Of a stretch of 64,000 nt of DNA, positions 40,301 to 42,842 are shown piece after piece. The DNA comes from Escherichia coli (GTDB taxonomy: Bacteria; Pseudomonadota; Gammaproteobacteria; Enterobacterales; Enterobacteriaceae), in the NCBI RefSeq assembly GCF_050920415.1, contig NZ_CP169309.1; one strand, written 5' to 3'. Numbering within the stretch: the first letter of the stretch is position 1; each line of letters starts with the position of its first letter. Position numbers: made by a program.

Positions 40301-42842
40301 AAAAAGAACCTCGCCTTCGATGAGCTGTTTGATGTGCGTGCGGTACGTATTGTCGCCGAGCGTTTACAGGATTGTTATGCCGCACTGGGGATAGTGCACA
40401 CTCACTATCGCCACCTGCCGGATGAGTTTGACGATTACGTTGCTAACCCGAAACCAAACGGTTATCAGTCTATTCATACCGTGGTTCTGGGGCCGGGTGG
40501 CAAAACCGTTGAGATCCAAATCCGCACCAAACAGATGCATGAAGATGCAGAGTTGGGTGTTGCTGCGCACTGGAAATATAAAGAAGGCGCGGCAGCTGGC
40601 GGCGCACGTTCGGGACATGAAGACCGAATTGCCTGGCTGCGTAAACTGATTGCGTGGCAGGAAGAGATGGCTGATTCCGGCGAAATGCTCGACGAAGTAC
40701 GCAGCCAGGTTTTTGACGACCGGGTGTATGTCTTTACGCCGAAAGGCGATGTCGTTGATTTGCCTGCGGGATCAACGCCGCTGGACTTCGCTTACCACAT
40801 CCACAGTGATGTCGGACACCGCTGCATCGGGGCAAAAATTGGCGGGCGCATTGTGCCGTTCACCTACCAGTTGCAGATGGGCGACCAGATTGAAATTATC
40901 ACCCAGAAACAGCCGAACCCCAGCCGTGACTGGTTAAACCCAAACCTCGGTTACGTCACAACCAGCCGTGGGCGTTCGAAAATTCACGCCTGGTTCCGTA
41001 AACAGGATCGTGACAAAAATATTCTGGCAGGGCGGCAAATCCTTGACGACGAGCTGGAACATCTGGGGATCAGCCTGAAAGAAGCAGAAAAACATCTGCT
41101 GCCGCGTTACAACTTCAATGATGTCGACGAGTTGTTAGCAGCGATTGGTGGCGGGGATATCCGTCTCAATCAGATGGTGAACTTCCTGCAATCGCAATTT
41201 AATAAGCCGAGTGCCGAAGAGCAGGATGCCGCCGCGCTGAAGCAACTTCAGCAAAAAAGCTATACGCCGCAAAACCGCAGTAAAGATAACGGTCGTGTGG
41301 TGGTAGAAGGTGTCGGCAACCTGATGCACCACATCGCGCGCTGCTGTCAGCCGATTCCTGGAGATGAGATTGTCGGTTTCATTACCCAGGGGCGCGGTAT
41401 TTCAGTACACCGCGCCGATTGCGAACAACTGGCGGAACTGCGCTCCCATGCGCCAGAACGCATTGTTGACGCGGTATGGGGCGAGAGTTACTCCGCCGGA
41501 TATTCGCTGGTGGTCCGCGTGGTGGCTAATGATCGTAGTGGGTTGTTACGTGATATCACGACCATTCTCGCCAACGAGAAGGTGAACGTGCTTGGCGTTG
41601 CCAGCCGTAGCGACACCAAACAGCAACTGGCAACCATCGACATGACTATTGAGATTTACAACCTGCAAGTGCTGGGCCGCGTGCTGGGTAAACTCAACCA
41701 GGTGCCGGATGTTATCGACGCGCGTCGACTGCATGGGAATTAATCATGCATAGCTGGATATGGCATCAGCCGTATCCAGCGGTATCTTTTACTCGAAGGT
41801 ATTACACCTGACAGACCCGCAATTTTCAGGACATTCTAATGAATCAAATCGACCGTTTGCTCACTATTATGCAGCGCCTGCGCGACCCGGAAAACGGCTG
41901 CCCGTGGGATAAAGAGCAGACATTTGCCACCATTGCACCTTACACCCTTGAAGAAACCTACGAGGTGCTGGACGCCATTGCCCGTGAAGATTTTGACGAT
42001 CTGCGCGGTGAACTCGGCGATCTGCTGTTCCAGGTGGTGTTTTACGCACAAATGGCCCAGGAAGAAGGGCGCTTTGACTTTAATGATATTTGCGCTGCGA
42101 TTAGCGATAAATTAGAGCGTCGCCATCCGCATGTTTTTGCTGACAGTTCTGCCGAAAACAGTCGTGAAGTGCTTGCCCGTTGGGAGCAAATCAAAACCGA
42201 AGAGCGCGCGCAGAAAGCGCAGCATTCGGCGCTGGACGATATTCCTCGTAGTTTACCGGCTTTAATGCGTGCGCAAAAAATCCAGAAACGTTGCGCCAAC
42301 GTTGGCTTCGATTGGACGACGCTTGGTCCGGTAGTCGATAAAGTCTACGAAGAGATCGACGAGGTGATGTACGAGGCGCGGCAGGCTGTTGTCGACCAGG
42401 CTAAACTGGAGGATGAAATGGGTGACCTGCTGTTTGCCACGGTCAACATGGCCCGCCATTTAGGGACAAAAGCAGAGATTGCACTACAAAAAGCCAATGA
42501 AAAATTCGAGCGCCGTTTTCGCGAAGTGGAGCGTATTGTTGCCGCGCGTGGACTGGAAATGACAGGTGTAGACCTCGAAACAATGGAAGAAGTCTGGCAA
42601 CAGGTAAAACGGCAGGAAATTGATCTCTAAGGGAATTACGTGGTCAAGCGCGATTTGTGTCATTTTTTAAATGACAAGCGCTTGATTTGCGTCAAAAACA
42701 TTTACCCCAAAGGGGCTATTTTCTCACTCCTGATTTCAATGGTGAGCTGGCGAAGAGGAGGGATAATGAAAGTTTGTGGCACAGGTCATGTTCGGGTATA
42801 CTGCTTTCCCGTCCTGGTTATTCCATCGTCTTTTCAACCTAA

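What the first reader, a model, noticed from the sequence alone, without database searches (positions are those of the whole stretch)
41744..41838. No mazEF toxin-antitoxin genes between relA and mazG
In K-12 the mazE-mazF module sits between relA and mazG. Here relA stops at 41743 and mazG starts at 41839, leaving a 95-bp spacer with no ORF and no remnant of mazEF visible. This strain therefore either never acquired mazEF at this site or lost it cleanly, relevant to stress and phage-abortive phenotypes attributed to MazF.
Basis: partly seen in the sequence, partly recalled or inferred. Interest (0 to 1): 0.45.

Follow-up and report, generated by a model that had tools for sequence, protein, structure and literature searches.

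The report
Ancestral empty relA–mazG site, no mazEF
This E. coli strain has no mazEF toxin–antitoxin genes between relA and mazG because it carries the original, never-occupied form of that short spacer, a common variant that is already described in the literature and so is ordinary.

Summary
relA ends at 41743 and mazG starts at 41839. The 95-bp spacer holds no mazE or mazF sequence or remnant, and the 64-kb window has no MazE/MazF homologue.

The site has two forms. Of 5,426 complete E. coli genomes, 1,006 (18.5%) carry this empty-type spacer, including ST131, ATCC 25922 and 042. Another 4,419 carry mazEF, and the two counts sum to all 5,425 genomes that have the locus.

The difference is a replacement. 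53 bp (41744-41796), holding a 12-bp-stem REP-like hairpin and a T-run, exist only in empty alleles. K-12 has a ~688-bp cassette there (mazE operator, mazE, mazF).

The hairpin aligns with REP palindromes at the same position in Citrobacter, Klebsiella and Enterobacter. Two deeper Escherichia lineages have the same 95-bp spacer. None of 80 Enterobacterales species representatives has mazEF there. The empty allele is therefore ancestral, which rules out a clean deletion. E. albertii shows what a real loss looks like: operator and mazF-end remnants.

The spacer most likely serves as the native relA–mazG intercistronic region.

Fraikin et al. 2020 and Fiedoruk et al. 2015 already describe this absence. 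Verdict: already known, low interest.

The parts
39509..41743 (+). relA (GTP diphosphokinase, 744 aa), with a TAA stop at 41741-41743
   Evidence: ORF list. NCBIfam NF008124, 1678 bits, full length. PGAP annotation of the near-identical genome.
41744..41796 (+). 53-bp segment specific to the empty allele. It is absent from mazEF+ alleles, which carry a ~688-bp mazEF cassette at this position.
   Evidence: Alignment with K-12 and ST131. A 57-bp query covering it matches 1,006 of 5,426 complete E. coli genomes, once per genome.
41753..41780 (+). REP-like hairpin (12-bp stem, 4-nt loop) followed by GGTATCTTTT. It is a candidate relA 3' stem-loop or partial terminator.
   Evidence: Terminator-like scan hit. 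RNA fold of the spacer region (41735-41845): -33.4 kcal/mol, z = -3.6. Pairing is kept in 5 Escherichia alleles, with one compensatory and three wobble-compatible changes. It aligns with REP palindromes in Citrobacter, Klebsiella and Enterobacter.
41797..41838 (+). mazG leader shared by empty and mazEF+ alleles, including a Shine-Dalgarno-like AGGA at 41828-41831, 7 nt before the ATG
   Evidence: Alignments and direct reading of the sequence.
41839..42630 (+). mazG (nucleoside triphosphate pyrophosphohydrolase, 263 aa)
   Evidence: ORF list. TIGR00444, 416 bits, and NF007113, 369 bits.

Best explanation
The 95-bp interval is the ancestral relA–mazG intercistronic spacer in its unoccupied form. 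It is not a site from which mazEF was excised. It has two parts. The first is a 53-bp segment with a single-copy, REP-derived stem-loop plus a short T-run directly after the relA stop. The second is the 42-bp mazG leader with its ribosome-binding site. In most E. coli a ~688-bp cassette (mazE operator/promoter, mazE, mazF, and a ~27-bp tail) has replaced the 53-bp segment. This strain, like about a fifth of sequenced E. coli, keeps the original. The functional reading is inferred, not shown. relA and mazG are probably co-transcribed from the relA promoters. The stem-loop may protect the relA 3' end and attenuate read-through. mazG then lacks both the MazE/MazF-autoregulated promoter that drives it in K-12 and the ACA-specific MazF endoribonuclease.
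For: K-12 has relA-mazE-mazF-mazG. The junction alignment shows a replacement: the left breakpoint is directly after the relA stop and the right breakpoint is at 41796/41797. In 5,426 complete E. coli genomes, 1,006 have the empty-type spacer, once each, and 4,419 have mazEF. Together these make up all 5,425 genomes that have the locus. Among 80 Enterobacterales species-representative loci, none has a MazE or MazF homologue in the relA–mazG gap, and most gaps are 65-150 bp. Two deeper Escherichia lineages, about 4% and 6% divergent, have the same 95-bp spacer. The hairpin aligns with REP palindromes after the relA stop in Citrobacter, Klebsiella and Enterobacter, and its pairing is conserved with one compensatory change. 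E. albertii carries recognisable remnants of the mazE operator and the mazF 3' end, whereas the window carries none. No sigma-70-like promoter is found in 41300-42900. A chimeric-query control shows no mazEF-like DNA elsewhere on the near-identical chromosome NZ_CP169399.1. The literature states that relA-mazG form an undisturbed bicistronic operon in the many strains lacking mazEF (PMC7167474). It also describes TA cassettes as promoter/operator plus ORFs without a terminator, inserted between core genes (PMC5120126, citing Ramisetty & Santhosh 2016).
Against: The hairpin is only about 60% identical to the outgroup REPs and is single-copy, so calling it REP-derived rests on position and partial similarity. 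The hairpin with its T-run also scores as terminator-like, which may limit relA–mazG co-transcription, and no expression data were available. The mazEF scar in E. albertii means the cassette is old or has moved between species. The history of this strain's lineage, retained versus regained empty allele, is therefore not fixed by the sequence. Within B2, mazEF+ and empty strains have nearly identical flanks (0.6-0.8% divergence). That shows the two alleles can be exchanged over very short tracts.
Confidence: 0.88

Rival explanations
1. Secondary loss by allelic replacement. An ancestor of this strain carried mazEF and later received the ancestral-type empty allele from another Escherichia by homologous recombination across relA and mazG.
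For: B2 strains IHE3034 (mazEF+) and ZH193/ST131 (empty) differ by only 0.6-0.8% in their flanks, so the alleles are exchanged on short tracts. E. albertii has a mazEF scar, so the cassette may predate the E. coli radiation. Several window-private SNPs within about 300 bp of the junction match the states of the deeper lineages L004 and L005.
Against: Window-private SNPs are spread fairly evenly (about 1%) over 4.3 kb, with no sharply bounded tract. The matches to L004 and L005 are equally well explained as retained ancestral states. No donor haplotype was identified. Only 2 of 5,426 genomes are >=99% identical across this region, so the haplotype looks like an old private lineage and not a recent import.
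Confidence: 0.25
2. Clean deletion. mazEF was once present and was excised precisely, leaving a scarless 95-bp spacer.
For: Nothing beyond the absence of the genes.
Against: The spacer contains 53 bp that mazEF+ alleles do not have. A deletion cannot create sequence that is homologous to outgroup spacers. The one real decay example, E. albertii, keeps operator and mazF-end remnants, and none are present here.
Confidence: 0.02
3. Assembly or sequencing artefact. mazEF is really present but was collapsed out of the sequence.
For: None.
Against: The same empty spacer occurs in 1,006 independently finished genomes. It is present in the near-identical complete genome NZ_CP169399.1. The region is single-copy and non-repetitive.
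Confidence: 0.01

Closest known systems
mazEF-negative relA–mazG allele of E. coli (ST131, ATCC 25922, 042 in the genome comparisons here; Fraikin et al. 2020 name UTI89 as their example, also citing Fiedoruk et al. 2015 and Pandey & Gerdes 2005)
   Same: It has the same gene order, the same 95-bp spacer length and the same hairpin. The 57-bp allele-specific query is 96% identical over its aligned part. The literature describes the locus as an undisturbed relA-mazG bicistronic operon.
   Different: This strain's haplotype is rare. Only 2 of 5,426 genomes are >=99% identical across relA 3'–mazG 5'. Compared with the ST131 allele, its spacer has about nine private substitutions across the 95 bp.
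K-12 relA-mazE-mazF-mazG operon (chpA locus)
   Same: relA, mazG and the last 42 bp of the mazG leader are orthologous (about 97% identical).
   Different: K-12 has a ~688-bp cassette (operator palindrome, mazE, mazF, tail) where this strain has the 53-bp hairpin segment. In K-12, mazG is co-transcribed with mazEF (Gross et al. 2006, as cited in PMC5120126).
REP (repetitive extragenic palindromic) elements in the relA–mazG spacer of Citrobacter, Klebsiella and Enterobacter
   Same: An imperfect palindrome sits at the same position directly after the relA TAA stop, with shared GC(C/T)GGATA…TATCC(A/G)GC arms.
   Different: The E. coli copy is degenerate. It has ATAG in place of the GTAG head and about 60% identity, and it is single-copy in the genome at blastn sensitivity.
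Decayed mazEF locus of E. albertii NBRC 107761
   Same: It is also a mazEF-less interval between relA and mazG.
   Different: E. albertii has a 261-bp spacer that keeps about 40 bp of the mazE operator region (about 85% identical) and about 45 bp from the mazF 3' end and tail (about 88% identical), with REP/BIME sequences in between. That is a true secondary loss, unlike the window.

Membership tests
mazEF (chpA) type II toxin–antitoxin module | A MazF/PemK-family toxin ORF (about 111 aa) | tested here: not met
   tblastn with K-12 MazF finds no hit in the window at E<=1e-3. No ORF in the spacer apart from a spurious 50-aa out-of-frame ORF.
mazEF (chpA) type II toxin–antitoxin module | A MazE antitoxin ORF (about 82 aa) immediately upstream of the toxin | tested here: not met
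   tblastn with K-12 MazE finds no hit in the window.
mazEF (chpA) type II toxin–antitoxin module | The operator/promoter palindrome (…TCGTATCTACAATGTAGATTGATATATACTGTATCTACATATGATAGC…) after the relA stop | tested here: not met
   The alignment with K-12 shows no homologous bases in 41744-41796. E. albertii does retain this element.
Ancestral (empty) relA–mazG allele | relA stop and mazG start separated by a short spacer (about 95 bp) with no TA-derived sequence | tested here: met
Ancestral (empty) relA–mazG allele | The spacer is homologous to that of other mazEF-negative E. coli and of deeper Escherichia lineages | tested here: met
   1,006 genomes match the allele-specific 57 bp at 90-100% identity. 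L004 and L005 (6% and 4% divergent) have the same 95-bp architecture.
Ancestral (empty) relA–mazG allele | The outgroup state is empty | tested here: met
   79 of the 80 Enterobacterales species-representative loci contain a relA 3' end upstream of mazG, and none has a MazE or MazF homologue in the gap.
REP element | An imperfect GC-rich extragenic palindrome of about 30-40 bp | tested here: met
   12-bp stem at 41753-41780.
REP element | A conserved GTAG/CTAC tetranucleotide head and family consensus arms | tested here: inconclusive
   The window has ATAGC where L004 has GTAGC and Citrobacter has GTAGGC. The arms are partly conserved.
REP element | Many copies per genome | tested here: not met
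   The 57-bp segment has exactly one place per genome in all 1,006 genomes. It is therefore best described as a REP-derived relic and not a current family member.
Intrinsic (Rho-independent) terminator | A GC-rich stem-loop followed by a U-tract | tested here: inconclusive
   It passes the consensus scan. However, the T-run is only 4 consecutive T and starts 6 nt after the stem. Function is not testable here.

The most novel reading that the evidence does not exclude
The relA–mazG intercistronic spacer may be a recurrent landing pad for small conflict modules across Enterobacteriaceae. It holds mazEF in E. coli (decayed in E. albertii), parDE in a Superficieibacter species, and an Hcp gene with a putative effector and immunity gene in Buttiauxella agrestis. 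An orphan homologue of that putative immunity gene is found in S. electus, and in the Superficieibacter species it has been partly overwritten by parDE. In E. coli the cassette precisely replaced a REP palindrome. That hints at a REP- or hairpin-associated integration or recombination mechanism for chromosomal TA mobility, which the literature still calls unelucidated.
Probability: 0.15. Interest if true: 0.45.

Novelty: already known. Interest (0 to 1): 0.1.

Why it matters
The practical value is for annotation and phenotype prediction. This strain cannot show MazF-dependent phenotypes such as ACA-specific mRNA cleavage, the proposed abortive infection or RNA-phage defence, or MazEF-linked control of mazG. 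K-12-based regulatory models of relA-mazEFG do not apply to it either. The analysis adds a clear sequence criterion that separates never-occupied alleles from decayed ones: the 53-bp REP-like hairpin versus operator and mazF remnants. It also adds a current frequency, 1,006 of 5,426 complete genomes. It does not open a new question.

Tried and rejected
1. Clean deletion was rejected because the spacer contains 53 bp that mazEF+ alleles lack.

2. I first took the relA stop codon (TAA in empty alleles, TAG in K-12 and E. albertii) as part of the junction. I rejected this because strain 042 is empty but has TAG.

3. IHE3034 (B2, mazEF+) shares its MazG protein accession with K-12, which suggested a K-12-like import. 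I rejected this because at the DNA level its flanks are B2-like (0.5-0.8% from ST131, versus 1.3-2.4% from K-12).

4. I tested the idea that this strain belongs to a cryptic clade, since relA–mazG is only about 97% identical to most E. coli. It was rejected: over about 15 kb the strain is 1.4-2.8% from K-12, ST131 and 042, which is ordinary divergence between phylogroups.

5. I looked for a recent recombination tract centred on the spacer and found no sharp boundary.

6. I asked whether replacement of a REP by a cassette is a general rule at this site. It is not supported. In Superficieibacter and Buttiauxella the inserts lie downstream of a retained relA-proximal hairpin.

7. An Rfam scan found no known RNA family in the spacer.

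8. My first attempt to build the chimeric query used the wrong record. It was redone correctly.

9. Two paper look-ups failed because a search term was too short. Norton & Mulvey 2012 turned out not to discuss mazEF.

Full report
**Observation.** The coordinates are right. relA is the 744-aa ORF at 39509-41743 (NCBIfam NF008124, 1678 bits). mazG is the 263-aa ORF at 41839-42630 (TIGR00444 and NF007113). rlmD and barA lie upstream and pyrG and eno downstream. The spacer 41744-41838 is 95 bp. tblastn with K-12 MazE and MazF finds nothing anywhere in the 64-kb window. The only ORF touching the spacer is a 50-aa ORF (41760-41912) that starts inside a hairpin, overlaps mazG out of frame, and loses its ATG in a related allele. 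I treat it as spurious.

**What the window is.** It is ordinary E. coli core chromosome, from amiC to cysJ. It is nearly identical to strain MFDS1022581 (NZ_CP169399.1; Korea, animal-source food), differing by 2 SNPs and one extra CRISPR repeat-spacer unit. Across about 15 kb around the site it differs by 1.4-2.8% from K-12, ST131 and strain 042, which is normal divergence between phylogroups.

**Anatomy of the polymorphism.** Aligning the window, ST131 strain ZH193 (also empty) and K-12 shows a replacement, not a simple insertion or deletion.
- Homology runs through the relA stop codon and resumes at 41797 (AGGTATTACACCTGAC…), 42 bp before the mazG ATG.
- In between, empty alleles have 53 bp (41744-41796).
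- K-12 has about 688 bp there: the 77-bp mazE operator/promoter region, mazE, mazF, and about 27 bp after the mazF stop.
- The stop codon itself (TAA or TAG) does not track the allele, because strain 042 is empty with TAG.

**The 53-bp segment.** It carries a 12-bp-stem hairpin (41753-41780) followed by GGTATCTTTT.
- It scores as terminator-like.
- It dominates the predicted fold of the spacer (-33.4 kcal/mol, z = -3.6).
- Its pairing is kept in five Escherichia alleles. In the most divergent one, all four stem substitutions preserve pairing, including one change on both sides of a pair.

**Frequency.** A 57-bp query specific to the empty allele matches 1,006 of 5,426 complete E. coli genomes, once per genome and only on chromosomes. 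K-12 mazEF matches 4,419 genomes. The sum is 5,425, which is every genome that has the relA–mazG region. Empty genomes include O25b:H4-ST131 strains, ATCC 25922 and 042. B2 is polymorphic, since IHE3034 and E2348/69 carry mazEF. A chimeric-query control addressed the rest of the genome. It joined a gudX-gudD anchor to K-12 mazEF and was run with blastn at word size 11. It gave 2 places in NZ_CP169399.1, namely the anchor and the gudX/gudD paralogue cross-match seen in every genome. It gave 3 places in mazEF+ O157:H7 genomes. So the near-identical genome has no mazEF-like DNA elsewhere on its chromosome. More distant MazF-family toxins were not tested.

**Which state is ancestral.** A scan of one genome per GTDB species with MazG returned 80 Enterobacterales loci.
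- In 79 a relA 3' end lies upstream of mazG, and none has a MazE or MazF homologue in the gap. Most gaps are 65-150 bp.
- Two deeper Escherichia lineages labelled E. coli, L005 (about 4% divergent) and L004 (about 6%), have the same 95-bp spacer.
- In Citrobacter, Klebsiella and Enterobacter the spacer begins, right after a TAA stop, with a canonical REP palindrome (GTAGGCCGGATAAGGCG…CGCCATCCGGC).
- The E. coli hairpin aligns to that palindrome, and L004 is intermediate in sequence (GTAGCCGGATACGG…CCGTATCCGG).

The empty allele therefore descends from an allele that never contained mazEF. A deletion of mazEF could not have recreated those 53 bp.

**What a real loss looks like.** E. albertii NBRC 107761 has a 261-bp spacer. 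It keeps about 40 bp of the mazE operator region (about 85% identical to K-12). It also keeps about 45 bp of the mazF 3' end and tail (about 88% identical), including GGAATTACAACTCA from within mazF. REP/BIME sequences lie in between. Nothing of this kind is present in the window.

**History of this particular lineage.** Because E. albertii carries a scar, the cassette is either old or has moved between species by recombination. Within B2, the flanks of a mazEF+ strain and an empty strain differ by only 0.6-0.8%, so the two alleles are exchanged over short tracts. In the window, SNPs absent from four reference E. coli are spread at about 1% over 4.3 kb without a sharp tract. Near the junction many of them match the states of L004 and L005. 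This fits an old, vertically kept empty haplotype, but it cannot exclude an ancient allelic replacement. I put "never occupied in this lineage" at roughly 0.65-0.7, "regained the empty allele by recombination" at about 0.25, and "clean deletion" at about 0.02 or less.

**How it most likely works.**
- Shown: the gene order, the conserved hairpin, the AGGA Shine-Dalgarno-like motif 7 nt before the mazG ATG, and the absence of any sigma-70-like promoter in 41300-42900.
- Inferred: relA and mazG are co-transcribed, as the literature states for mazEF-negative strains (PMC7167474). The REP-derived stem-loop probably stabilises the relA 3' end or attenuates read-through, as REP elements do in other operons (established knowledge, not tested here).
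- Consequence: compared with K-12, mazG lacks the MazE/MazF-autoregulated promoter with which it is co-transcribed (Gross et al. 2006, as cited in PMC5120126), and the cell lacks the MazF endoribonuclease.

[quoted passage not shown] They describe TA insertion loci as plastic, with a parDE system in the same intergenic region in Salmonella, and they cite Pandey & Gerdes 2005 and Fiedoruk et al. 2015. Ramisetty & Santhosh 2016, as summarised in PMC5120126, describe chromosomal TA modules as horizontally moving cassettes of promoter/operator plus ORFs without a terminator, integrated between core genes. The finding is therefore already known. What this analysis adds is modest: exact junctions, the REP-relic argument for ancestry, the E. 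albertii scar as a contrast, and an up-to-date frequency.

**Verdict.** The allele is ancestral-type and clean deletion is excluded. The novelty class is "already known" and interest is about 0.1. The most novel reading still open is that this spacer is a recurrent landing pad for conflict modules in several genera, possibly linked to its hairpin or REP. Support comes from parDE in a Superficieibacter species (ParD TIGR02606, ParE PF05016) and from an Hcp-containing three-gene insert in Buttiauxella agrestis. A homologue of that insert's membrane ORF also occurs in S. electus, and in the Superficieibacter species it has been partly overwritten by parDE. In those genera, however, the inserts sit downstream of a retained hairpin, so REP replacement is not a general rule.

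Noticed in passing
window 50688-50960 (between queE and ygcE): A small type I-E-style CRISPR array (repeat GAGTTCCCCGCGCCAGCGGGGATAAACCG). The window has one more 61-bp repeat-spacer unit (about 50717-50777) than the otherwise near-identical genome NZ_CP169399.1, which also differs by 2 SNPs at 19525 and 21958. The window therefore comes from a very close relative, not from that exact record.
   Followed up: partly
L006 2740-3000 (E. albertii NBRC 107761, relA–mazG spacer): A decayed mazEF locus. About 40 bp of the mazE operator palindrome and about 45 bp of the mazF 3' end and tail survive, with REP/BIME elements replacing the genes. mazEF was therefore once present in E. albertii, or was imported and then lost.
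   Followed up: partly
L019 2060-3000 (Superficieibacter sp. 1612_C1): The relA–mazG gap (941 bp) holds a parDE toxin–antitoxin pair (ParD TIGR02606, 86 bits; ParE PF05016, E = 1.5e-11). Its 3' end overlies a remnant of the membrane-protein ORF found intact in S. electus (L017), so this is a nested replacement at the same site.
   Followed up: partly
L043 1207-3000 (Buttiauxella agrestis ATCC 33320): The relA–mazG gap (1,794 bp) holds an Hcp/TssD gene (TIGR03344, 190 bits), a 261-aa ORF with no family match, and a 109-aa membrane ORF. The layout resembles a type VI effector–immunity module. The 109-aa ORF is 29% identical (E = 3e-7) to the 112-aa ORF in the S. electus gap (L017). A second assembly labelled with the same strain name (L031) has only a 116-bp gap.
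   Followed up: partly
L089 versus L087 (IHE3034 versus ZH193): Phylogroup B2 is polymorphic for mazEF. ST95 strain IHE3034 carries it and ST131 strain ZH193 does not, yet their flanks differ by only 0.6-0.8%. The review PMC7167474 cites UTI89 (also B2) as lacking mazEF. This was not checked here.
   Followed up: no
window 397-1220 and 45131-48079: According to the PGAP annotation of the near-identical genome, a PRD-domain regulator gene is frameshifted with an internal stop. Three TPM-domain genes next to a LemA-family gene are pseudogenes (internal stop, frameshift, truncation). Strain 042 has all three TPM genes intact.
   Followed up: no
window 5703-6109, minus strand: Four tandem tRNA-Met genes (Rfam RF00005, 61 bits each). 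CsrB sRNA lies at 28819-29178 and GcvB at 10433-10638. All are expected core features.
   Followed up: no
window 1252-5624: A four-gene block lies between amiC and the tRNA-Met cluster: PTS EIIC, a MalY/PatB-family protein, a KpsF/GutQ-type isomerase and a phosphoglycerate dehydrogenase. It may be accessory, but its distribution was not examined.
   Followed up: no
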